Below, in pieces: positions 1-52,392 of a stretch of 64,000 bases of DNA. The stretch is from a virus. Taxonomy: Duplodnaviria > Caudoviricetes. The stretch lies in IMG/VR virus record IMGVR_UViG_3300048998_000202. One strand, given 5' to 3'. The notes beneath the pieces were generated by a model, which worked only from the letters and a program-made list of their open reading frames with translations, was not told the DNA's origin and made no database searches. Both the position numbers and the translations under genes were made by a program. Every line of letters begins with the position of its first letter. The first letter of the stretch is position 1.

Positions 1-116
1 CCACCCGGAGGTGATCCCCTTCTCCCTGCCGTGCCTTACCCGGCCCTGCCTAGCCATGCCACACCGCACCACGCCCCGCAGGTCTTGACGTTATCAAGAC
101 CCTTCGGAGCCGTCAA
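1..116 (-). ncRNA. GGY-NN pentamer guide-like RNA unit A with own promoter (3' end runs off the window)
   Basis: Minus strand: TTGACG-17 nt-TAACGT, then caagacc-tgcGG and 10 perfect GGY-NN pentamers (ggcgt ggtgc ggtgt ggcat ggcta ggcag ggccg ggtaa ggcac ggcag), then the start of a GC hairpin. Confidence 0.8.
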
Positions 117-120
117 TGAC

Positions 121-248
121 GAAGGGGCCCTCCGTAGAGGACCCCTTCTCCTATGCCAAACCTAGCCATACCCTACCCTGCCACGCCAAACCTAGCCAAG
201 CCATGCCCTGCAAGACTTGACTCTGTCAGCTCCTACGGCATCTGTCAA
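121..248 (-). ncRNA. GGY-NN pentamer guide-like RNA unit B
   Basis: TTGACA-17 nt-CAGAGT promoter, leader caagtcttgcAG, 11 perfect GGY-NN pentamers (207-153) and terminator hairpin GAAGGGGTCCTC-tacg-GAGGGCCCCTTC. Confidence 0.82.
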
Positions 249-253
249 CGACG

Positions 254-353
254 GAGGGGCCCCACCGTAGTGGAGCCCCTCTCCCATGCCCGGCCTTACC
301 CAGCCCTGCCTTGCCTCACCTCGGCCAGCCGTACCGAGACCTTGACTGTATCA
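254..353 (-). ncRNA. GGY-NN pentamer guide-like RNA unit C
   Basis: TGATACAGTCA box just after the stop codon of the 357-1226 gene, 10 pentamers (335-286, one variant gccga) and hairpin GAGGGGCTCCAC-tacg-GTGGGGCCCCTC. Confidence 0.78.
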
Positions 354-4855: not shown

Positions 4856-5077
4856 ATGCAGACAGACACCCCCACCGACGACCTGAAGCTGTACGGGATC
4901 TCCGAGCTGGCGGATCGCTGGAAGGTCTCTAAGCAGCGGGCTGACGAGATCGCCTCCAAGCGCCTCCCACAGCCCCTCACGCTCAAGATGGGCCGCATCT
5001 GGACAGAACTCCAGGTGGAGAACTTCGAGAGAGGGTGGGTCCGTAAGACGGGGCGTCACATCGTCCCCAGGACTTGA
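4856..5077 (+). CDS. small AlpA/excisionase-like HTH DNA-binding protein
   Basis: LYGISELADRWKVSKQRADEI...LPQP..LKMGRIW is an AlpA-like wHTH pattern. Start could be 4838. Lies directly upstream of the RNA array. Confidence 0.7.
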   Translation: MQTDTPTDDLKLYGISELADRWKVSKQRADEIASKRLPQPLTLKMGRIWTELQVENFERGWVRKTGRHIVPRT

Positions 5078-5163
5078 TATCGTCAGGGGTTACTGGGCTC
5101 GGCAGGGCTAGGTAGGGCAGGACTGGGCACGGCATGGGAGGGGCTTCCTACGGGGAGCCCCTC
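5075..5163 (+). ncRNA. GGY-NN guide-like RNA unit D
   Basis: TGATATCGTCA box, pentamers 5096-5135 (one variant gactg) and hairpin GAGGGGCTTCC-tacg-GGGAGCCCCTC. Confidence 0.75.
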
Positions 5164-5168
5164 AGCCG

Positions 5169-5262
5169 TTGACAGGCGCTCTTGGGAGTGACAGAGTCAG
5201 GTCTTGCAGGACCACACGTGGGCGTGTGGAGAAGGGGCGCTTCTTCCAGGAGGCGCCCCTTC
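5169..5262 (+). ncRNA. array unit E: same promoter/leader but hairpin body instead of pentamers
   Basis: TTGACA-17-CAGAGT, caggtcttgcag, hairpin CCACACG-tggg-CGTGTGG and terminator GAAGGGGCGC..GCGCCCCTTC. Confidence 0.6.
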
Positions 5263-5267
5263 GTCGT

Positions 5268-5422
5268 TTGACAGACCGGCACGGGGGTGACAAAGTCAGG
5301 TCTTGCATGATGGGAAGGACACACGGTTGGTTTCTGAGGCCGGAACCGTGTGGATGCGATCGGCCCTCAAGGCCGTGGACGCGTCCGAAGGCCCCCTCTG
5401 AAGATTCCTGGAGGGGGCCTTC
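5268..5422 (+). ncRNA. array unit F: same promoter/leader, two-hairpin structured RNA
   Basis: TTGACA-17-CAAAGT, caggtcttgca, stems CACACGGTT/AACCGTGTG and GGATGCG..CGGCC/GGCCG..CGCGTCC, then terminator GAAGGCCCCCTC/GAGGGGGCCTTC. Confidence 0.6.
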
Positions 5423-5428
5423 GTTCGT

Positions 5429-5557
5429 TTGACCGGACGACATTAGGGCTGACAGGGTCAGTTCTTACAGGGCACCGTCTGGTTGGGCACGGTAAGGCAT
5501 GGTGGGGTAAGGCACGGCTGGGCAGGGGAGGGCGACCATCTTCGGATGGTCGCCCTC
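5429..5557 (+). ncRNA. GGY-NN guide-like RNA unit G
   Basis: TTGACC-18-CAGGGT, 11 pentamers at 5471-5525 (one variant cgtct) and a UUCG-capped terminator. Confidence 0.8.
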
Positions 5558-5563
5558 AGCCGT

Positions 5564-5706
5564 TTGACAGGTGCGGGTGGAGCTGACAGAGTCAAGTCTT
5601 GCAGGGCCGGGCCCGGTAGGGCGTGGTTTGGCGTGGTGTGGTTGGGCAACGCATGGCATGGCATGGCAGGGGAAAGGCCCCAGGATTTTAAAATCCTGGG
5701 GCCTTT
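5564..5706 (+). ncRNA. GGY-NN guide-like RNA unit H
   Basis: TTGACA-17-CAGAGT, 13 pentamers at 5605-5669 (one variant cgcat) and terminator GAAAGGCCCCAGGATTTTAAAATCCTGGGGCCTTTC. Confidence 0.8.
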
Positions 5707-5708
5707 CG

Positions 5709-5841
5709 TTACGCCCTGAAGGAACTGATAGAGTCATGGTCTCGGCAGGCCGAGGCTAGGTAAGGCACGGCGGGGCAAGGCACCGCCCGGTAGGGCAAGG
5801 CATGGGGAAGGCCCCCTCGGATTCTCCCGAGGGGGCCTTCC
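5709..5841 (+). ncRNA. GGY-NN guide-like RNA unit I (decodes to major capsid gene motif)
   Basis: TGATAGAGTCA box, 12 pentamers at 5744-5803 (variants gccga, cgccc) and a terminator convergent with the capsid gene. Confidence 0.82.
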
Positions 5842-5866
5842 GTTGTCCTGAAGCGACTACTCTCCG

Positions 5867-6856
5867 TCACGCCTTGGTGATCGTCGCGATGCCCCTGGGG
5901 TTCAAAATGGACATATTGACCATTTCGTCAAATACCCATCCCTTCCAGAAGGCTTCGACCATGTGGTTCTCTTCCACGTCCAAACTGTACAGAACGGGGA
6001 AAACGCCCAAGAAGTTGGGCTCCGGGGTGAGGAAGACCTTGCCCTGCGGGACGATGATCGACCGCTGGATCTGGAACTCGCCGAACGAGGTGATGGTCTC
6101 GCCCGCGACGACCCGGTCCTTGAAGGCCCAGCCCGTCTGGTTGATGTCCCACCGGTACAGGTCCCGGAAGTCGAACGGGTTGATCAGGATCCGCGCCGAC
6201 TGGAGCTCGTGCATGTCCGTCATGGCGACGGCCGAGTACAGCGAGCCCGGCGTCAGGTAGCCCGACGCCTCGGTGATGTTGTGGTTCGGGGTGACCGTGT
6301 GGTCCGGGCGGGTGGCGTAGTCCGTCAGCGCCGCCTGGAGCAGTACGAGCAGCCGGGTGTCCTCCTGCTTGAGGATCGCCTGCTTGGTCTCGTCCTGGGC
6401 CTGCTCGACTGCGTTGATACGCAGGTAGAACAGGTCCTCCTTGCGGATCGCGGGGCGCGAGGCGATACGGAAGAACCGCACCGGAACGCGCTTGCCCTCG
6501 AACGGAGTCACACGGACTTCGCCCTCGGTGCCGGACATGATGTACGCCTGGCCCAGGTCGTCCCACACGTCGTACTCGACGGGGGTACCCGGGGTGACCG
6601 GGTCCTCCACGAGCACGTTGCGGGTGATGCCCTGGTAGCGGAGCTTGAGCTGGATGGGACCGACCATCCCGACGCCCAGACGGCGGATGCCGCCGGTCTC
6701 GTCGGAGAGGATCAGCGCCATCTTCTTGACCTTCGCCTCATGCGTGAGAGGCGCGGCCTTCTCCCGGCGGGCGAGGATCGCGGAGGCGTAGTCGTCGGAC
6801 TTCTTGGCCACACGGCCACGGAGCGACGAGGTTGCGGCGAGAGTCTGAGTCGGCAT
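5867..6856 (-). CDS. major capsid protein (HK97 fold)
   Basis: 329 aa with capsid-like sequence (GPIQLKLRYQGITRNVLVED, QAILKQEDTRL, C-terminal ILNPRGIATI). Follows scaffold and decoration genes. Confidence 0.85.
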   Translation of the reverse strand: MPTQTLAATSSLRGRVAKKSDDYASAILARREKAAPLTHEAKVKKMALILSDETGGIRRLGVGMVGPIQLKLRYQGITRNVLVEDPVTPGTPVEYDVWDDLGQAYIMSGTEGEVRVTPFEGKRVPVRFFRIASRPAIRKEDLFYLRINAVEQAQDETKQAILKQEDTRLLVLLQAALTDYATRPDHTVTPNHNITEASGYLTPGSLYSAVAMTDMHELQSARILINPFDFRDLYRWDINQTGWAFKDRVVAGETITSFGEFQIQRSIIVPQGKVFLTPEPNFLGVFPVLYSLDVEENHMVEAFWKGWVFDEMVNMSILNPRGIATITKA

Positions 6857-6866
6857 CAGTCAGCTC

Positions 6867-7391
6867 CTAGTACTTCTGACGAAGGCCACCGATGGTGATC
6901 TTCGTGGCGGAGTTGACCTTGAGGAGCCGGGCGACCGGCTGCACCGTCAGAGCGGTGACGACGCTGCCGTTGGTGGCCAGCGCGAGCTTCCCGCGACCGG
7001 TGCCGGTGGCGGCGCCGTAGATGAGCGTCTCGGTACCGTCACCCGGCTCGGTCCAGCTCTGGGTGGATTCGAAGGCCGGGGCGAGGATCTCGAACTCGGC
7101 GTCCGGGGCGAGCTTCCACACCGCGAAGGTGTTGATGCCCGACTCCAGTGGTTCGTCGATGCCGTCGCCACCCACGTACAGGGCGCCCAGGCCGTAGGGG
7201 ATGCTGCTGGTCGCGCCCACGAGAGACACGTTCTCCCCGGCGGTCTTCATGAAGACCATTCCCGGCCAGATCGGGACACTGCGGTCCCAAGCGGCGTCCA
7301 GGAAGCAGCTCGCGGGCGTGGATTGGGTCCAGCCGTAGAGCGGTCGGATCGTGCGCTTGATGTACGACGTTGCCATCTTCGTACGAAGCAC
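6867..7391 (-). CDS. capsid decoration/cement protein (putative)
   Basis: ~175-aa beta-rich ORF between scaffold and capsid genes. GTG start after GGGAGGGG. Confidence 0.6.
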   Translation of the reverse strand: MLRTKMATSYIKRTIRPLYGWTQSTPASCFLDAAWDRSVPIWPGMVFMKTAGENVSLVGATSSIPYGLGALYVGGDGIDEPLESGINTFAVWKLAPDAEFEILAPAFESTQSWTEPGDGTETLIYGAATGTGRGKLALATNGSVVTALTVQPVARLLKVNSATKITIGGLRQKY

Positions 7392-7584
7392 TACAACCCC
7401 TCCCATCTCATCTATTCGGACATATGGGCCGTCTGCTCGATGTCCGATACGAGACGGGCCCTTCTCACCCCTTTCGGGGGCTCAGACCGGGGAAGACAGG
7501 ATCAAGGGGGACGGAAACATGCCGCAGCCCCCTCCCGGGATGACGGGAGGGGGCTGACGGGAGCTAGTTGAAGAAGTCGGGGTC

Positions 7585-8493
7585 CTAGTCGAAGAGGGAC
7601 TCGGCGTCTTCGTCGGTCAGGCCCACCGCTCCGGCGACGGAGGTGATGGGCGCGGGCTGGGTCACCAGGGAGGGCATGGTGCGCTGGACACCCGGGGCGT
7701 TGGACGCGGCCCGGGGCACCAGGCCCTGCGGACGGGCCTGGCGTGCGGCGGCCTTGGTCACCTGCGACAGGGTGGCGATCTCGTGGCGGATCATCGCCTC
7801 GCTCATGTTCCGGTCGGACTCGATCGAGGCGGCCACCGCGAACTCGTCGCCTCGGGCCAGTCCGGCGGTGATGCGGTGGCGGGCCAGCCGCATGGAGGCC
7901 AGGGTCCGGTTGCGGGAGCCGGTCTGGCTCATCTCGCCCGAACGCGGCGGGGTGGTGCCCTGCTGCGCGGACGGTCCGAAAGCCGGGTTCAGCGGGTAGG
8001 CGGTCTCGGGGTTCATCGGGTCGCCCACGCGCACGTCGGTCTCGATGCGGGTGGTGTCCGGCGGGGTGTGGGTCTCGGTCCCGGCGACCGGCGCACTCAC
8101 GTTGAGGAGCTGATTGAACGGCGCGGTCGGCAGCGTGACGCCCGGGTCCATGGGGGTGGCGGTCGTCTCGGCCGCGACGCCCTGGTTGGCACCGGGGGTC
8201 TGCCCGATCTGGTTCGGGTTGTCGTACGCCTCCGGGGTGGCGGCCTGCTCGGTGGTCTCCACCGGGGCCTCGGAGGGCGGGTTGGGCACCGGCTGGGCAG
8301 GGTTGTCGATGTCGGCCTGACGCTTGATCGCGTCGACCTCCTTCGTGACACCGGCCAGCCGGGCGACGTAGGCGAGCTGGAGGCCCTGGATGGTGAGCTG
8401 GCGCTCCAGTTCGGTGTTGCGGGCCTCCACGGTGCGGAGGTTCTTCTGCTGGCTCGCCATGGCCTGCATGAGCGGGCGGTTGCCACTTGCCAT
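7585..8493 (-). CDS. scaffolding-like head protein
   Basis: N-terminal coiled coil, Pro-rich linker and acidic C-terminus (DEDAESLFD). Lies between protease and capsid genes. Confidence 0.6.
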   Translation of the reverse strand: MASGNRPLMQAMASQQKNLRTVEARNTELERQLTIQGLQLAYVARLAGVTKEVDAIKRQADIDNPAQPVPNPPSEAPVETTEQAATPEAYDNPNQIGQTPGANQGVAAETTATPMDPGVTLPTAPFNQLLNVSAPVAGTETHTPPDTTRIETDVRVGDPMNPETAYPLNPAFGPSAQQGTTPPRSGEMSQTGSRNRTLASMRLARHRITAGLARGDEFAVAASIESDRNMSEAMIRHEIATLSQVTKAAARQARPQGLVPRAASNAPGVQRTMPSLVTQPAPITSVAGAVGLTDEDAESLFD

Positions 8494-8571
8494 GAGATGT
8501 ACTTCCTCTGGTCGGGCTCGCGGCAAGCCGAGAGCTTTACGTCTTCACCCCTTACGGGGACTACTGGCAGA

Positions 8572-11500
8572 TCAGACAGGCATCGGCAGCGGCGTTTCGC
8601 CCTGCTCTTCGGCGGGGCTCATGAGCTGCCCCTGACCACAGTTGGGGCAGACGTCGCCCGCCTGGACTCCGTCGGGGGTGGCCTCTCCCGTCGGCGGCAG
8701 GATCGAGGTGTCCATGTCGACGCTCACCGGGTTGGTGGCGTCGGCCTGGAATCCGCACGCCGGACATTCGAGGTCCGGTACGCCATCGCCGGGGGTACCG
8801 GGGACTCCCTGGCCCGCGTCCGGGTTGGGGATCTGTCCGTCGGTGTCCAGGTCCTGAGGTCCGGCCGGGCCCTCGGGACCTGTCGGCTGGCCGGGTCCCT
8901 GGGGCGTGTCGGGCCCTGGGGTGAACGGCTGGCCGTCACTGCTGACCGCGTCGGCCGGGAGGGCCTGCGGTCCGATCGGCATTCCGTCGGGTCCGACCAT
9001 CATCTGCTGGCCGGGCTGCTGGAGCGGCTGTCCGTCGGGTCCGAGCATGGCCGGGTCGACTGGTGCCCCCAGCTCGTTCGGATCCTGCGGCTGGCCGTCC
9101 GGGCCGAGCGCGTTGGGATCCTGGGGCGAGTCTCCGCCCATCGGGTCGCCGCCCGGCTGTACCTCGGCCTGTACTTCACCGGGGAGTGTGCCGGGCTGCT
9201 GACCCTGGTCCGCAGCGTCGGGGTTGACGGGGTTGCCGTTCTCGTCCAGGGCCGCCGGGTCGGCCGGGTTTTCGACCGGCTGTCCGTCAGGTCCGATCTG
9301 ATTGGGGTTGGCCGGATCCTGGAACTCTGCGACGTCCTTCCGCAGGTCCATCTGTCGGGCCTTCTCCAGGTCGGGGTCCTGGAACATCTTGGGGGGTGCG
9401 ACGTAGCTGCACACCTGGCAGGTGGCGCCGTCGAAGGTGTCGCGGTCACCGCACACCGGGCAGGCGTCCTCGCGCAGGGTGTCCACGTCCTCGGGGGCCT
9501 TCGTCTCGCCGTAGGCCAGTTTGCGGCCCAGCAGGCGACGAGAATCCTCGGGGGGAGTAGCCCCCCGGCCCGTCTGGAGACCCTTGCCGTTCTCGGTGGC
9601 GAACGGGGAGTGCACCGGGGCTGGGTCGTAATGGGCCGCAGCGTGATCCAGCATGGCGGAGGCCACTCCTCGTCGCTTGAGGTTGTCGTCCACACCGATC
9701 CAGTTGATATGGCCAGCGGGCTTGACGTGCCAGGAGTCCGCGTGGCCATTCATGCCGCAGTGGTCGCAGTGCTGATCGGGCCGGAAGTCGTCAGGTCCCT
9801 TCTCGTCCCAGTACTCCTCGCGCTTCTTGGTCCACTCCAGCTTCCCGACCTGCTGCCTGTCGGGAGTGTGGGCGCGCAGCACGTGGTACTTGTAGTCCGG
9901 TCCACCGTGGTACGTGAAGTGCAGGCCCTCCGGCAGATCACCACTGGCCCCGGCCACATGGGAGTTCGCCGGGGGCTGGTGCAGGTCCGGATTGTGCTCG
10001 CGGCTGAGGTCCTGCCAGGTCTTGCGCTGGTTGCGCTGCACGGTGTTGCGGCCCTTCTGACCGCCTGAGGTGTCACCCTCGGCGTTCAGGCGCTGCCGGG
10101 CGAGCCAGGTGACGGCCTGCACCTCGTGCGGGGGCACTTCGCGGCCCTCACGGTCGGAGATGACCGCTGCGGCCTTGCGGTAGTGGTTGGCCACGACCTC
10201 GTAGTGCTTGCGGTTCTGCGAAGGGAAGCCCTTGACGTCGTCGGCGTTCAGACGGCGCCCGGCGGCGACGGACAGGGCATGACGATCCACGACGACCTTG
10301 TCCGAAGGCTCCTTGGGCTTTCCTGCCGCCGCGTCCTCAGGGCTCTGGGGCTTGTTACCGCCGTGCTCGATCAGGGAGGCGAAGTCCTGCGTCTTGGGCC
10401 CCTTGAGGGCTTCCTGGTGGTTCATGCCGTCCATGACCTTCTGGGCGGCGTTGGCGTGACTGCCCATCACCATGATGCCCTCGCCCTTGCCGACGGCCCG
10501 CTGCTCGTGGAAGGCCCGCGCGGCGTTGTGCTGGTTGGCCCACCAGCCCTGCTGCGGGGAGTAGGCGGAGAGGACGCCTGCGCCCTTGTGGGCGGCTTCG
10601 GCGTCGCTCTTGATGCGGGGATCCAGTTTGGCGATGGACTTGGCCACCAGGTGGGCGTCGGGGTACCAGCGTTTGCCCTGCGCCTTCTCCTCGCTGGTGG
10701 CCTGGTCCCAGTGGTCCACGACGTGGTGGTGGGACAGGCCCATCTCCTTGAACCACGGATGGTCCTCGGGTGGCGTGGCCGCCGCACCCTCGGCCATCAG
10801 ATCGGCCAGGGTGACGCGGGAGCCGGTGGCGGCAATCTGCCTCACCACGGAGTCCGGGATCTCCTCCGGAGTGGGGTACGACTTCGAACGCGCCCTGTGG
10901 GTGGTGACGAAGTGGCCGTCACCGTCCTGCTTGAGACCGACCTCGGCGAAACGCGGGTCCTTCTTGGCGGCCTCGAACATCCGGTCCTGGGCGTACCCGG
11001 AGCCCTCGGGAGTCTTCCCGGGGTCTTTGGCCTTGGGCGGCCAGTTGGTGGCGCGTGCCCCGTGATAGGGAGCCTTCTCGCCGTATTCATCCGGGGTGTC
11101 GGAGAGGGGGGACTTCGCCACGTAGGCGTGGATCTTCTTGATCCCTGCGGCCTTGGCCGCCTCGGTCCGGTGGTGGCCGTCGGCGACCTGGAAGACGCCG
11201 TGCCGGTGTACGAGGACGACCGGTGGCATCTGCTCGGGGTTGTCCCGGTACCCCTCGGCAGCGTGCTGGACGCGGTAGTCACCGGCCTCGTGGCGCTTGT
11301 GGTCGATGGCGCTCGGGCTGACCATCGCGTGATGGAAGGTCAGGTCATCGATCGAACGCTCGTTGGCGTCAGGGTCGTCGGGGGTGGAGTGGGCCAAGTT
11401 GCTGGCTGCCCATCCGATCATCTCCCCGTCGGCGTGCTCGGCCCGATCGCCGTGGATCTCGGGGTCCCCGTAGATCTCCGGGTGCCGCTCGCCTACCTCG

Positions 11501-12327
11501 TCCCAGGACAGGCCCCGCCCGGCAGTGGTGTTGATGGAGTCAAGACTTGCGGTACTCTGGATCTCGCTCGGCTCGGCTCGGATTGGCTTGGTTGGGCTTG
11601 GCACGGCAAGGTACGGCATGGCATGGGTGGCGGTCTCTCCGGAGGCCGCCACAGCCATTTTCATACCCCGGTCATCGATCCCGGTGAAAAACGCCGTCGG
11701 ATCCGCCGGGGGCTCCACCAGCAGCGAGTTCTCGAAAAACCGCAATCCGTAGCAGGTCTCACGGATGATCTCGCCGATCTTCTGCCCGGAAGCCGTCGTC
11801 CGGTAAAGCGTCATTCCCTTTGATCCAGGGATGTGGGCGCAGTATTCGGCAGGGGTAGTGGCCTTGTTGCCACAGGCGGAGCAGACGGAGAAGGCGACGT
11901 CGGTGCCCATGCTGGTTCTGGCGATGTTGCCGTTCATGATCTCGGCGGCCAGCTTGGGAAAGCGCAGCGCATCGACCTCTTGGAGGACCTCGACCCACCA
12001 GTCCCGGCTGCCGTCGCGGTTGCTGTCCTTGTGCAAAACCGCGTCGATGATCACACCACGGGCGCGCTTGTGATCTTCGTTCGCGTGATTGACGAAGACG
12101 GGCTTACCGATAAACGTCCGGTATCCCTTCTCCAGTTCCTCAGCGGGGAACTCGTCGAAGTTGTCGTTGCACCGGCTGGAGATGGCGCGGGAGCGCACGT
12201 ACAGGTAGCCGGGGCGCACCTCATACGAAAAGTGGTGCCGGTGGGCGAAGCGGCGCAGCTCACGGGCACCCGCGTCCGTGGGGACGAGGGCCTTGGTCAT
12301 GATCTGGGCGCTCGCGTACTTGAGCAT
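8572..12327 (-). CDS. multidomain head protein: prohead protease-like N-terminus + ParB/Srx-like + HhH-glycosylase-like + GNAT + Zn ribbons
   Basis: N-terminal GKPVFVNH..ARGVIIDA..TSMG..CSACGN..YCAHI..FFENSLLVEPPADPTA. ParB-like MPPVVLV..ADGHHR. WY..SAYSPQ..GPK..VVVDRHA..VQAVTW. GNAT RRGVASAML. Several CxxC pairs. Confidence 0.7.
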   Translation of the reverse strand: MLKYASAQIMTKALVPTDAGARELRRFAHRHHFSYEVRPGYLYVRSRAISSRCNDNFDEFPAEELEKGYRTFIGKPVFVNHANEDHKRARGVIIDAVLHKDSNRDGSRDWWVEVLQEVDALRFPKLAAEIMNGNIARTSMGTDVAFSVCSACGNKATTPAEYCAHIPGSKGMTLYRTTASGQKIGEIIRETCYGLRFFENSLLVEPPADPTAFFTGIDDRGMKMAVAASGETATHAMPYLAVPSPTKPIRAEPSEIQSTASLDSINTTAGRGLSWDEVGERHPEIYGDPEIHGDRAEHADGEMIGWAASNLAHSTPDDPDANERSIDDLTFHHAMVSPSAIDHKRHEAGDYRVQHAAEGYRDNPEQMPPVVLVHRHGVFQVADGHHRTEAAKAAGIKKIHAYVAKSPLSDTPDEYGEKAPYHGARATNWPPKAKDPGKTPEGSGYAQDRMFEAAKKDPRFAEVGLKQDGDGHFVTTHRARSKSYPTPEEIPDSVVRQIAATGSRVTLADLMAEGAAATPPEDHPWFKEMGLSHHHVVDHWDQATSEEKAQGKRWYPDAHLVAKSIAKLDPRIKSDAEAAHKGAGVLSAYSPQQGWWANQHNAARAFHEQRAVGKGEGIMVMGSHANAAQKVMDGMNHQEALKGPKTQDFASLIEHGGNKPQSPEDAAAGKPKEPSDKVVVDRHALSVAAGRRLNADDVKGFPSQNRKHYEVVANHYRKAAAVISDREGREVPPHEVQAVTWLARQRLNAEGDTSGGQKGRNTVQRNQRKTWQDLSREHNPDLHQPPANSHVAGASGDLPEGLHFTYHGGPDYKYHVLRAHTPDRQQVGKLEWTKKREEYWDEKGPDDFRPDQHCDHCGMNGHADSWHVKPAGHINWIGVDDNLKRRGVASAMLDHAAAHYDPAPVHSPFATENGKGLQTGRGATPPEDSRRLLGRKLAYGETKAPEDVDTLREDACPVCGDRDTFDGATCQVCSYVAPPKMFQDPDLEKARQMDLRKDVAEFQDPANPNQIGPDGQPVENPADPAALDENGNPVNPDAADQGQQPGTLPGEVQAEVQPGGDPMGGDSPQDPNALGPDGQPQDPNELGAPVDPAMLGPDGQPLQQPGQQMMVGPDGMPIGPQALPADAVSSDGQPFTPGPDTPQGPGQPTGPEGPAGPQDLDTDGQIPNPDAGQGVPGTPGDGVPDLECPACGFQADATNPVSVDMDTSILPPTGEATPDGVQAGDVCPNCGQGQLMSPAEEQGETPLPMPV
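11532..11652 (+). ncRNA. GGY-NN guide-like RNA unit J, antisense inside the protease gene
   Basis: TGATGGAGTCA box, leader caagacttgcgg, pentamers at 11570-11624 (one variant ggatt) and terminator GTGGCGGTCTC-tccg-GAGGCCGCCAC. Confidence 0.78.
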
Positions 12328-12426
12328 GTGCCACCTCCACCCCTTCGCGGCACTGGGCCGGAGCAGGACAGCAGAAGGCCCCAGGGATCGGGGGTGACGA
12401 GGGTCCCTGGGGCCTTCAGGACGACG

Positions 12427-21791: not shown

Positions 21792-23186
21792 TCAACCCAC
21801 ACGACCGCCGACGTTGGCGTGACGGACCACGGTATTACTGGCGCTGGCCGCGCTCCACTGCCACGTGATCACCAGATCGTTCGAAATCGTGGTGTTGAAC
21901 GTTGACGTCGCCGTGGGAAAGATGATCTGGTTCGCCCCGATCGAGCCGACAACGGTCAGCGTCTGGTTCTGCCAGAAGGCATTCGTGCACGTGCCCGATC
22001 CCCCGGTCGTCAAGCATACGAAATCGGCCTCCGCGATCACGCCCTTGTTCGCCACGTTGGACGAAGTGACGGTCGGGCCCATCGTCGACAGAAGTGTCCC
22101 GGCGATTCCCCCCAGATACAGCCGCAGCGTGTAGGAGGGAGTACCCGTGACAGAACCCCGCAGCAACGTCCTCATGTGGTAGACGGCGCCTGCCGTCGCG
22201 TCGTTCGCAGGAATCGTCAACGTGGCCACCACCGTCTCCGTGATGGAGTTGCTGATGGTCTGCATCGACGCAGGAGACGGCACAGTGAACTGCCGGATCT
22301 GAGTGGCGAGGACCTTACTGTCCGTATCCAACGTGGCCACCCCGGAAGCGACCGCGAGCTGACTGGTGGGGACGGCATTGATATTCGCAGGAGTGACCGA
22401 AACAACGCCCTGCGACCCGTTGACCGACGTGACCCCAGCATGAACGTGATCACCCCGCGCCGCGCTGTTCGTCGCACCGGCCGCATTGGCCGACCCGATG
22501 GCCACGATGGTGCCGGTAGAGCTGTAGAGCTGCTGGGCGCCGTTGAGCTTGCTGGCGCCGTCCAGCCCCGGCACACCACCCGAAGCGTTCTTCGAGGCGC
22601 TCGCAATATACAGAGTGGTCAGATCCGGAATCTGCGACAGAGGGATCTTGGTACTGCCGTCCAGAGAGGCGACGCCACTGGCCGCCGCCTTCTGGGTCAC
22701 CGCCACGTACATACTGCTCAGGTCCGGAATCTGGGCAGTAGGCACCTTCGTGGAACCGTCCAGAGAGGCGACGCCGCTCGCTGCCGCCTTCTGGGTCGTC
22801 GCGATGTACGTCGCCGATAGATCCGGGATGCGGGCCGTGCCGAAGGTCCCCGAGGAGACCTGGGACGCCGGGAGGGGCGGCACCTGGGCCACGGGGACCA
22901 GCGTGCCGGAGTCCAGGGATGCCACCCCATTGGCCGCCGCCCGGGACGTCTTGGCGACATAAGTGGCATCGGTGAAGATCTGGTCCACCGCGCCGACGGT
23001 GCTCGCGTCCAGTTCGACGTTCCCGATCAGTCCGTTGACGGAGGTGACGCCCTCTACGATCGTCGAAGGCAGCTCCGAGGACGGGATCTTCCCGTCCGAT
23101 CCGAGACTGGCCACACCGCTCGCCGCACCGATCTGGGCGGAAGTAACGAAATCCGATGTGTCGTCCACCGTCAGGTGCTTAGGCAT
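21792..23186 (-). CDS. tail fiber/minor virion protein with internal repeats
   Basis: Repeats of KAAASGVASLDGSTK(V/I)P..QIPDL and GVTSVNG..G.V motifs. Confidence 0.75.
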   Translation of the reverse strand: MPKHLTVDDTSDFVTSAQIGAASGVASLGSDGKIPSSELPSTIVEGVTSVNGLIGNVELDASTVGAVDQIFTDATYVAKTSRAAANGVASLDSGTLVPVAQVPPLPASQVSSGTFGTARIPDLSATYIATTQKAAASGVASLDGSTKVPTAQIPDLSSMYVAVTQKAAASGVASLDGSTKIPLSQIPDLTTLYIASASKNASGGVPGLDGASKLNGAQQLYSSTGTIVAIGSANAAGATNSAARGDHVHAGVTSVNGSQGVVSVTPANINAVPTSQLAVASGVATLDTDSKVLATQIRQFTVPSPASMQTISNSITETVVATLTIPANDATAGAVYHMRTLLRGSVTGTPSYTLRLYLGGIAGTLLSTMGPTVTSSNVANKGVIAEADFVCLTTGGSGTCTNAFWQNQTLTVVGSIGANQIIFPTATSTFNTTISNDLVITWQWSAASASNTVVRHANVGGRVG

Positions 23187-42718: not shown

Positions 42719-42875
42719 GAAACCTCCAGGGTCAGAATCTCTGGCGGGACCAAGCGTACTCACAGGATTGCCGGAGCGCTACCCAACTACCTTTATGGGT
42801 TGGCCTCTTGCAGCGCTCATCGTTTCAGCACACGAAAAGGCCCCGAGGACTAGGTGTCCTCGGGGCCTTTTGTCG

Positions 42876-42949
42876 TAGCGCGGACCAGATTCGAACTGGC
42901 GACCTGTGGGTTATGAGCCCACCGAGCTACCGAACTGCTCCACCGCGCG
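42876..42949 (-). tRNA. tRNA-fMet (CAT)
   Basis: Cloverleaf with anticodon loop CTCATAA, unpaired C1 and GGG/CCC in the anticodon stem. CTGACA-17-TATCGT promoter upstream. Confidence 0.92.
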
Positions 42950-50084: not shown

Positions 50085-50254
50085 GCGGTCTCCTGGCGGG
50101 TGAGATTTTAAAAAGATGTGACTGGACTCTCCGACGGCTCTTGCGAGCCACGCACCCACATGGGGCTGGATATCTCTCGGGGTGGGAGCTTGCCTCCAGA
50201 TGTCCCGAGCCTTACCAGCGCCCATCCCATATCCAGTCTGGTGGGTCCCTAGCG

Positions 50255-50328
50255 CTCCTCCGGCAGGGTTCGAACCTGCGACCGTCGCCTTAACAGGGCG
50301 CTGCTCTGGCCAACTGAGCTACGGAGGA
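50255..50328 (-). tRNA. tRNA-Asn (GTT)
   Basis: Acceptor TCCTCCG/CGGAGGA, anticodon loop CTGTTAA and T-loop TTCGAAC. Confidence 0.92.
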
Positions 50329-51969: not shown

Positions 51970-52319
51970 CAGAGGACGACCGTCTGGAAGGTCTCCACGG
52001 CGGTGTCGTGGACGCCCCAGTCACCGTTGCTGTCCGAGGAGACCAGGTACATCCCCACGACCCGGTCGGGGTTCTTCTGGGCGTCGCCCCAGGACAGGTC
52101 GATCCGGTGGATGGCCAGGTCCTTCTGGAAACCGATGATCCGGACGACGTGGCCCCCGTGGATCTCCGGGAACTCCACGCTGCCCTTGTTGTCGGCGTGG
52201 ATCGGGTACGGGAGCTGGGTGCCCACGTGACCGTCATCGGTGATCATGTCGATGCGCGGGGCGGGCTGAATCTTGAACATGGGCATGGATACTCCCTGGT
52301 CCGACGACTATCTCTGGCG

Positions 52320-52392
52320 TACCCCCGACCGGATTCGAACCGGCACCTCCGGATTGAGAATCCGACGGGACTGCCATTGCCTCCACAGGGGC
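52320..52392 (-). tRNA. tRNA-Glu (CTC)
   Basis: Anticodon loop TTCTCAA, T-arm GCCGG-TTCGAAT-CCGGT and acceptor GCCCCTG/CGGGGGT. Confidence 0.85.

What the first reader, a model, noticed from the sequence alone, without database searches (positions are those of the whole stretch)
11532..12105. Guide J is hidden antisense inside the protease gene and targets that same gene's VFVNHxNED motif
Seen: a complete guide unit (box, leader, pentamers, terminator) sits in the linker after the protease-like domain without breaking the 1251-aa frame, which reads ETATHAMPYLAVPSPTKPIRAEPSEIQ there. The NN at 11570-11614 are TC TC TT TT TG TT AC AA AC. The + strand at 12074-12099, read two-on/one-off, is TC TC TT GC TG TT AC AA AC, so 8 of 9 dinucleotides match. 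The single central mismatch is Ala (GCG) where the guide encodes Asn/Lys. Inference: the guide and a resistant allele are linked ~450 bp apart, as in homing or gene-drive architecture.
Basis: partly seen in the sequence, partly recalled or inferred. Interest (0 to 1): 0.93.

Follow-up and report, generated by a model that had tools for sequence, protein, structure and literature searches.

The report
VIPR guide RNA nested inside protease gene
The 'guide J' is a real small-RNA gene of the recently described VIPR system (GGY/NN guide RNAs of phages), unusually placed antisense inside a head-protease gene, and its code spells the conserved catalytic motif of that same gene in rival relatives, while the carrier's own copy differs at one codon.

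Summary
At 11532-11661 (+) lies a full cassette: extended -10, leader, 11 GGYNN units, hairpin and U-run. It is antisense and in frame in the 1251-aa head-protease fusion ORF.

The cassette family is known. These are vrRNAs of VIPR systems, described in three 2026 bioRxiv preprints. A small RAMP protein, Vipr, reads the NN of each repeat against dsDNA, skipping every third base (the codon wobble).

Under that code J spells V-F-V-N-H-(N/K)-N-(D/E)-(D/E).
- Own gene: 16/18 nt, with one unit fully mismatched (Ala GCG).
- Relatives: 17/18. Three IMG/VR protease genes match 18/18.
- Only the 1-nt skip beats shuffled guides.

Three parallel cases support function.
- Sister nested unit J' targets WWANQHNAAR in the same gene family. 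Its carriers alone read WWANMHNAGR.
- A third nested unit (L186) targets VLIREKCF.
- vrRNA I targets the capsid. The own capsid has the lowest match score among 124 capsids, tied with three others.

Cautions:
- Ala at x also occurs in a homolog without the insert, and sister elements have Ser.
- J's -10 has G at the otherwise invariant A.
- One unit is GGA.
- Expression is untested.
- Nothing supports homing or gene drive.

Verdict: a new member of a known kind, in an unreported nested arrangement. Other first-stage notes of this scan describe the same cassettes.

The parts
11532..11540 (+). Promoter-like extended -10 of vrRNA J (TGA TGGAGT)
   Evidence: All 27 other cassettes in the window and relatives carry TGA + (T/C)A..GT at the same distance from the leader. 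J alone has G at -10 position 2 and has no -35. A canonical TAGAGT would be synonymous on the protein strand.
11541..11569 (+). Leader: CAAGACTTGCGG as in the other cassettes, plus about 17 extra nt that include a degenerate first unit (CGCTC)
   Evidence: The leader is nearly identical in the sister units of L167 and L168.
11570..11624 (+). Eleven GGYNN repeat units of vrRNA J. Unit 3 is GGA. The last unit, GGCAT, is a constant unit of the family.
   Evidence: The last unit is GGCA(G/T) in 30 of 31 cassettes. Between J and J', GG differs at 0/24 positions, Y at 3/12 and NN at 8/24.
11625..11661 (+). 3' tail: GGGTG junction, an 11-bp GC-rich hairpin, then a UUUU run
   Evidence: Fold (121-nt RNA, -57 kcal/mol, z = -3.45). 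The hairpin is kept in L167, L168, L020, L186 and L188 with different stem sequences.
12074..12099 (-). Cognate site of J in the carrier's own gene: codons V F V N H A N E D. It matches 16/18 nt. The Ala codon GCG sits opposite guide unit TT (= AAx).
8572..12327 (-). Host ORF (P0001, 1251 aa): N-terminal head-maturation-protease domain, variable linker, ParB-like region, DUF7178 and a C-terminal low-complexity region. The J cassette is a roughly 120-nt in-frame insert at about aa 225-265.
   Evidence: The insert is present in P0001-P0004 and absent in P0006, P0008 and P0010, among others.
5739..5841 (+). vrRNA I (parallel case). Its NN decode to x F L G V F P V L Y S L D.
5979..6016 (-). Cognate site of vrRNA I in the own major capsid gene (ORF 5867-6856, -). 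It matches 20/26 nt. The mismatches fall at Leu (TTG vs CTN), Ser (AGT vs TCN) and the first codon.
   Evidence: Relatives match up to 24/26. The own capsid ties with three others for the lowest score among 124.
1..353 (-). vrRNA cassettes A (21-80), B (153-212) and C (281-340), part of an array that runs off the window start
   Evidence: In relative L017 the equivalent array is followed by a 192-aa RAMP-fold gene.
5075..5700 (+). vrRNA cassettes D (5091-5140), G (5466-5530) and H (5600-5669), plus two cassettes without pentamers between them

Best explanation
Unit J is a vrRNA gene of a VIPR (Viral Interference Programmable Repeat) system carried by a roughly 153-kb Streptomyces phage-plasmid-like element. 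It is nested antisense and in frame in the variable linker of the head-maturation-protease fusion gene.

Mechanism, taken from the preprints and inferred for this element:
1. The roughly 100-nt RNA is bound unit by unit by the small RAMP protein Vipr. Vipr buries each GGY and presents each NN.
2. The filament pairs its NN with dsDNA, skipping every third base, and blocks transcription.

Shown here by sequence statistics: J's NN spell the codon positions 1-2 of V-F-V-N-H-(N/K)-N-(D/E)-(D/E), the invariant His-containing motif of the same protease in related elements.

Inferred purpose: silencing the head-morphogenesis gene of co-resident or super-infecting rival relatives.

The carrier's own gene has GCG (Ala) at the one variable codon of the motif, so one whole unit is unpaired. 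This probably lowers self-binding. The tolerance of VIPR to one mismatched unit is unknown.
For: Family identity:
- GGY/NN repeats, constant last unit and structured tail.
- No Rfam family matches.
- The literature matches exactly.
- Effector in relatives: a 192-aa protein directly after the homologous array in L017 (also present in L011). AF2 pLDDT is 92. All top PDB hits are Csm3/Cmr4/Cas7, probability 1.0, TM about 0.5.

Code and target:
- Only the 1-nt skip beats shuffled guides for J, J' and I.
- The J core reaches 17/18 in relatives. Shuffled guides reach at most 16 (0 of 200 as good).
- Exact 18/18 sites in IMG/VR include three orthologous protease genes: L173, L178 and L171.

RNA-level selection:
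- GG columns are invariant, NN are hypervariable, and the tail hairpin is kept with changed stems across W, L167, L168 and L020.

Independent parallels:
- J' (L167, L168) matches WWANQHNAAR of the same gene family at 18/20 over units 2-11 (0 of 200 shuffles as good) and 20/24 over all 12 units. Its carriers' own site scores 15/24 and reads WWANMHNAGR. The Gly is unique among 42 homologs.
- The L186 nested unit matches VLIREKCF at 15/16 (P=0.005). Its own gene scores 14/16 through a CGG-to-AGA Arg codon.
- vrRNA I matches rival capsids at 24/26 and the own capsid at 20/26, the lowest score among 124, shared with three others.
Against: - No expression data.
- J's -10 has G where all 27 other cassettes have A, and there is no -35.
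- Unit 3 is GGA, not GGY.
- vipr is not inside this window. Its presence in this genome rests on an unchecked first-stage note and on synteny with L017.
- The self match is high: 16/18, 17/20 or 18/24 depending on which units count. That is only 1-2 nt below the best rivals in the loci.
- Ala at x is also found without the insert (P0097). Sister elements have Ser, which mismatches equally.
Confidence: 0.66

Rival explanations
1. Autoregulation. J, and likewise I, binds the carrier's own late structural genes through an imperfect match. This keeps head genes silent while the element persists as a plasmid-prophage. The matches to relatives simply reflect shared ancestry of the target motif.
For: - The own site matches 16/18 in the core and 17/20 over units 1-10.
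- The L186 unit matches its own gene 14/16.
- The published 80% rule would count these as hits if the constant 3' units are left out.
- The guide and its site lie in one gene.
Against: - In every case tested the own site scores below the best non-self site: I 20 vs 24, J' 15 vs 20, L186 14 vs 15, J 18 vs 19 of 24.
- J' carriers have two derived amino-acid changes exactly in the site.
- The preprints report no self-hits at 80% or above, and lower self than non-self scores.
Confidence: 0.14
2. Decaying relic. A vrRNA cassette was once inserted into the tolerant linker. It is now drifting as coding sequence and is no longer made or used.
For: - The -10 A-to-G change is synonymous on the protein strand and moves toward the preferred codon.
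- There is one GGA unit, a degenerate first unit and no -35.
- The L187 nested unit has a register shift and no significant target.
Against: - GG positions are invariant while NN change across four lineages.
- The tail hairpin is kept with different stems.
- J, J' and the L186 unit each have a significant target in the same gene family. Drift would erase that.
Confidence: 0.15
3. Chance resemblance between the NN string and the motif.
For: With all 12 units scored, the permutation P is only 0.115 in the 1.5-Mb set.
Against: - None of 200 shuffles of the 9-unit core scores as high as the real guide.
- Only the 1-nt skip register gives a signal.
- The hit lies in the very gene that hosts the unit.
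- Two further nested units and vrRNA I show the same behaviour.
Confidence: 0.03
4. Homing or gene-drive module: the guide directs cleavage of insert-less alleles and copies itself in.
For: The guide and a mismatched allele are linked about 450 bp apart. The insert has a patchy distribution among relatives.
Against: - No nuclease is encoded in or beside the insert.
- The target site is 450 bp from the insertion site, not at it.
- The vap partner in relatives has no nuclease domain hit.
- The VIPR type characterised in the preprints silences transcription and does not cut.
Confidence: 0.02

Closest known systems
VIPR systems: Vipr RAMP protein plus vrRNAs (bioRxiv 10.64898/2026.04.26.720920, 10.64898/2026.04.26.720927, 10.64898/2026.10.15.759431)
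   Same: - GGY/NN pentamer repeats (9-16 units) followed by a structured 3' tail.
- NN hypervariable and GGY fixed.
- 1-nt-skip recognition with the skip at the codon wobble.
- Targets are genes of competing mobile elements, on either strand.
- Self match lower than non-self match.
- A small RAMP-fold protein next to the arrays in relatives.
   Different: - The vrRNA gene lies inside a protein-coding ORF, antisense and in frame. I found no mention of this in the three preprints.
- It is aimed at the same gene family that hosts it.
- The host is a roughly 150-kb Streptomyces phage-plasmid-like element with at least 8 cassettes in this window. Each has its own HrdB-type promoter and hairpin.
- The tail is a plain hairpin, not the SUSP1 pseudoknot.
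- Targets are structural genes (capsid, head protease), not regulators or recombinases.
Solo or orphan vrRNAs of SUSP1-family phages and F5 satellites (10.64898/2026.10.15.759431)
   Same: - vrRNAs located away from vipr.
- They are aimed at close relatives.
- Their self-match scores are lower than their non-self scores.
   Different: Those are intergenic and target vipr, other vrRNAs, satellites or host repeats. J is intragenic and targets a catalytic motif of a virion-maturation gene.
Class 1 CRISPR crRNA-Cas7 filaments
   Same: - A RAMP backbone protein polymerises on the guide.
- The thumb flips bases out periodically.
- The Vipr candidate's best structural matches are Csm3/Cmr4.
   Different: - No repeat-spacer array and no cas genes.
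- The pairing period is 2 of 5 guide bases against 2 of 3 target bases, not 5 of 6.
- No acquisition machinery.
TRAP-type RNA (triplets with 2-nt spacers wrapped on a protein ring)
   Same: A 5-nt period, with 3 fixed and 2 free bases, and about 11 repeats. This was my first guess.
   Different: The free NN carry target information. The partner is a RAMP filament protein, not a TRAP ring. I rejected this reading.

Membership tests
VIPR vrRNA | 9-16 tandem GGY/NN (YNNGG) units with fixed GGY and variable NN | tested here: met
   J has 11 units at 11570-11624 plus one degenerate unit. 10 of the 11 are GGY and one is GGA. Between J and J', GG differs at 0/24, Y at 3/12 and NN at 8/24.
VIPR vrRNA | Invariable structured 3' tail after the repeats | tested here: met
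   GGGTG plus an 11-bp hairpin plus UUUU. The hairpin is conserved, with different stem sequences, in L020, L186 and L188. The shape is a hairpin. Equivalence with the SUSP1 pseudoknot tail was not tested.
VIPR vrRNA | NN match natural targets by the 1-nt-skip rule, with the skip at the codon wobble | tested here: met
   Skip 1 gives 18/20, against a shuffled maximum of 17. Skips 0 and 2 give 14/20, at the level of shuffled guides. All skipped bases are third codon positions. 18/18 sites exist in three orthologous genes.
VIPR vrRNA | Non-self targets at 80% NN match or above; no self target at 80% or above | tested here: inconclusive
   - With the 11 called units: own 17/22 = 0.77, relatives 18/22 = 0.82.
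- With the constant 3' units left out: own 0.85-0.89, relatives 0.90-1.0.
VIPR system | vipr gene (small RAMP, about 20 kDa) in the same element | tested here: inconclusive
   - There is no vipr in the 64-kb window (tblastn).
- In relatives L017 and L011 a 192-aa gene follows or adjoins the arrays. Its model (pLDDT 92) hits only Csm3/Cmr4/Cas7 chains.
- A first-stage note places a 192-aa gene just beyond the window start. I could not read that DNA.
VIPR system | vap accessory gene beside vipr | tested here: inconclusive
   A 187-aa gene follows vipr in L017 and L011. It has no significant Pfam hit.
VIPR system | vrRNA is expressed and co-purifies with Vipr; the RNP binds dsDNA and represses transcription | not testable with these tools
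Homing / gene-drive element | A site-specific nuclease, with the recognition site at the empty insertion site | tested here: not met
   There is no ORF within the 120-nt insert. The target lies 450 bp from the insertion point. No nuclease domain was found in the partner genes.
cis-antisense regulatory RNA acting on mRNA | The guide pairs with the transcript of the target gene | tested here: inconclusive
   J, J' and I are antisense to their targets and so could pair with mRNA. The L186 nested unit matches the coding strand itself. That fits strand-blind dsDNA recognition, not mRNA pairing.

The most novel reading that the evidence does not exclude
Nested vrRNAs and their mismatched cognate sites may form single-gene 'guide plus immune allele' modules. 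These would act as exclusion or incompatibility determinants among sibling Streptomyces phage-plasmids.

Such an arms race would push residues next to catalytic motifs to diversify: the x position in VFVNHxN, and Q/M and A/G in WWANQHNAA. It would also favour switches between the two codon boxes of Leu, Ser and Arg, the only synonymous escapes that a wobble-skipping guide leaves open.
Probability: 0.35. Interest if true: 0.7.

Novelty: new member of a known kind. Interest (0 to 1): 0.5.

Why it matters
- It extends the newly described VIPR system to large Streptomyces phage-plasmid-like elements.
- It shows a gene arrangement not mentioned in the three preprints I read: a complete guide-RNA gene living inside the reading frame of the very gene family it targets.
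- Together with J', the L186 unit and vrRNA I, it gives natural examples of how carriers avoid their own guides. They use amino-acid changes at tolerant positions, or switches between six-fold-degenerate codon boxes.
- These pairs are ready-made material for measuring the mismatch tolerance of VIPR, and for testing whether VIPR decides which of two related elements can share a host.

Tried and rejected
- TRAP- or CsrB-like protein-sponge RNA was my first guess. I dropped it once the NN proved informative.
- Rfam: no family matches the cassettes.
- Megablast of 5000-12400 against phage records: no match.
- Guides A, B, C, D, G and H have no match better than shuffled guides, in the window or in 1.5 Mb of relatives' structural modules.
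- Excess codon-box switching at the vrRNA I site was not shown. Such switches are common all along the capsid gene.
- Guide A as SF2 helicase motif III (first-stage note). In 301 Streptomyces genomes the only hits at 2 mismatches or fewer (9 genomes, 18/20) fall in one family, DUF6084, at motif LVFRLRITAT. They represent one independent locus, so significance is doubtful.
- The L020, L187 and L188 nested units gave no clearly significant target. L020 reached 18/22, P=0.025, in a distant relative.

Full report
**1. What is there**

The window is high-GC (about 0.66). It belongs to a roughly 153-kb element whose relatives sit on 150-160-kb contigs and Streptomyces plasmids.

A search for GG at 5-nt spacing finds eight arrays and almost nothing else: 55 overlapping matches against 0.8 expected.

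- Each array is a small cassette.
- The promoter is either TGA-TAGAGT (extended -10, no -35) or TTGACA-17 nt-CAGAGT.
- There follows a leader, CAAGTCTTGCAGG, and then 10-13 GGYNN units.
- The last unit is always GGCA(G/T).
- A GC-rich hairpin closes the cassette.
- Unit J (11532-11661, +) has all these parts.
- No Rfam family matches.

**2. The observation**

J lies antisense inside the 1251-aa ORF 8572-12327 (-).

- The N-terminus of that ORF (aa 26-213) is a head-maturation-protease domain. The rest holds a ParB-like stretch and DUF7178.
- The frame stays open through the unit.
- The cassette is a roughly 120-nt in-frame insert in a linker that is highly variable among 120 homologs. It is present in P0001-P0004 and absent in P0006, P0008 and P0010, for example.
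- The skipped bases are the wobble positions of V F V N H A N E D.

**3. What it is**

A literature search identified the cassette family. These are vrRNAs of VIPR systems.

According to 10.64898/2026.04.26.720920:
- A small ancestral RAMP protein, Vipr, binds vrRNAs made of 9-16 GGY/NN repeats plus a 3' tail.
- The NN pair with dsDNA under a '1-nt skip rule'. The skipped base usually falls on the codon wobble.
- Either strand can be targeted and there is no PAM.
- The outcome is transcriptional silencing of competing phages, prophages and satellites.

The structural preprint 10.64898/2026.04.26.720927 shows one protomer per repeat, extrusion of GGY and of the skipped target base, and an R-loop triplex.

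The third preprint, 10.64898/2026.10.15.759431:
- describes solo vrRNAs;
- uses an identity threshold of 0.8;
- reports that self-match scores are lower than non-self scores.

Other first-stage notes of this scan describe the same cassettes.

**4. The effector**

- No vipr homolog lies in the window.
- In relative L017 the array equivalent to A-C is followed by a 192-aa gene (P0121) and a 187-aa gene. L011 has both next to its array.
- P0121 has more than 500 homologs of about 190 aa and no Pfam domain.
- Its AlphaFold model has pLDDT 92.
- Its top PDB matches are all Csm3/Cmr4/Cas7 backbone subunits (probability 1.0, TM about 0.5).
- A first-stage note reports a 192-aa gene just beyond the start of this window. 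I could not read that DNA.

**5. Is J's match meaningful?**

I fetched 166 related loci with the capsid protein and scored every guide against 1.5 Mb of non-redundant sequence on both strands. Order-shuffled guides served as the null.

- The J core (9 units) reaches 17/18. None of 200 shuffled guides scored above 16.
- Units 1-10 reach 18/20, P=0.005.
- All 12 units reach 19/24, P=0.115.
- The two 3'-most units (AT AT) never match. The last unit is constant in the family, so it is probably part of the tail.
- With 0- or 2-nt skips J falls to the level of shuffled guides. The same holds for J' and I.
- An exact-pattern scan of IMG/VR for the 18 specified bases returned 11 sites. Three are the orthologous protease motif: L173 VFVNHNNEDH, L178 VFVNHNNDDH and L171 VFVNHKNEDP.
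- So perfect natural targets exist. At protein level 5 of 120 homologs fit all nine positions.

**6. Parallel cases**

(a) vrRNA I (5739-5808)
- It decodes to x-F-L-G-V-F-P-V-L-Y-S-L-D, a peptide invariant in 124 related capsids.
- Rival capsids match up to 24/26 nt.
- The own capsid matches 20/26, the lowest score seen, shared with three others. Its mismatches fall at Leu TTG vs CTN and Ser AGT vs TCN.

(b) J' (L167, L168)
- This is the same insert in the closest relatives, with identical GG scaffold, leader and tail but 8 of 24 NN bases changed.
- Its best match is WWANQHNAAR in the DUF7178 part of the same gene family: 20/24, and 18/20 for units 2-11. In the 200-shuffle test, 0.5% of shuffles reached the 12-unit score and none reached the 10-unit score.
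- Its carriers read WWANMHNAGR, scoring 15/24.
- The Gly is unique among 42 homologs with the motif.

(c) More nested units
- Similar units sit at the same linker site in L020, L186 (P0074) and L187 (P0098), and at another linker in L188 (P0091).
- The L186 unit matches VLIREKCF in the protease domain on the coding strand: 15/16 in L188 (P=0.005).
- It matches 14/16 in its own gene, where Arg is AGA instead of CGG.
- The sense-strand match fits strand-blind dsDNA recognition rather than mRNA pairing.

**7. How far 'resistant allele' holds for J**

- The own site is mismatched at one whole unit.
- Scored with the 11 called units, the own gene is at 0.77 and relatives at 0.82. These sit on either side of the published 0.8 line.
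- Without the constant 3' units the own gene scores 0.85-0.89.
- The own score (18/24) is not low among relatives, which range from 16 to 19.
- Ala at x also occurs in P0097, which has no insert.
- The nearest relatives have Ser (TCG), which mismatches J equally.
- The simplest reading is that J's NN were selected to fit N/K-type rivals. Ala need not have arisen as an escape.
- For J' the opposite holds: the carriers' site carries derived changes.
- How many mismatches VIPR tolerates is not reported in the preprints I read.

**8. Doubts about activity**

- J's -10 reads TGGAGT. All 27 other cassettes have A at the second position. The change is synonymous on the protein strand.
- One unit is GGA.
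- No expression data could be obtained.

**9. Verdict**

J is a VIPR vrRNA gene, nested in the ORF of the gene family it targets. The target assignment is statistically sound and is supported by three independent parallels.

Self-sparing is plausible but weakly shown for J itself. Homing or gene drive has no support.

The kind of system is known. The nested arrangement and the structural-gene targets in Streptomyces elements are new details.

Noticed in passing
window 5186-5265 and 5290-5435 (+): Two cassettes have the same promoter box, leader (CAGGTCTTGCA..) and hairpin terminator as the vrRNAs, but no GGYNN repeats. One is a short hairpin RNA and the other a roughly 110-nt structured insert. 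They sit between vrRNAs D and G.
   Followed up: no
L026 11119-11251, L029 11066-11449, L041 7956-8622, L055 4481-5109, L100 7980-8494 (all - strand, downstream of the capsid gene): More distant relatives carry long continuous GGYNN tracts with register shifts and no individual promoters. These resemble the 'staggered arrays' named in the VIPR preprint.
   Followed up: partly
window 21-80 (-), vrRNA A; L180-L185: Guide A's only near matches (18/20) in 301 Streptomyces genomes fall on the motif LVFRLRITAT of DUF6084 genes (9 genomes; reversed-pattern control 0). They do not fall on an SF2 helicase motif as a first-stage note proposed. They represent one independent locus, so the result may be chance.
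   Followed up: partly
capsid ORF window 5867-6856 (-) and orthologs: Among capsids at 95% amino-acid identity or more, switches between the two codon boxes of Ser (TCN/AGY), Leu (CTN/TTG) and Arg (CGN/AGG) occur at more than 20 conserved positions along the whole gene. I could not tell whether this exceeds what saturated synonymous divergence gives.
   Followed up: partly
L186 1877-1900 (+): The cognate site of the L186 nested vrRNA in its own gene uses codons that are rare for a high-GC genome: CTA, AGA, GAA and AAA. The same peptide in L188 uses CTC, CGG, GAG and AAG.
   Followed up: no
L011 3907-5267 (-): In this close relative vipr, vap and three vrRNA cassettes lie directly downstream of, and convergent with, the capsid gene. 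Its I-like guide has CT where its own capsid has TTG at Leu-290. The window's guide has TT where its own capsid has CTG. The mismatch is reciprocal.
   Followed up: partly
window 22619-22826: A 99-bp tandem repeat, 2.1 copies, 77% matches.
   Followed up: no
window 42875-42949, 50254-50328, 52319-52392 (-): Three tRNA genes (Met-CAT, Asn-GTT, Glu-CTC) in the element.
   Followed up: no
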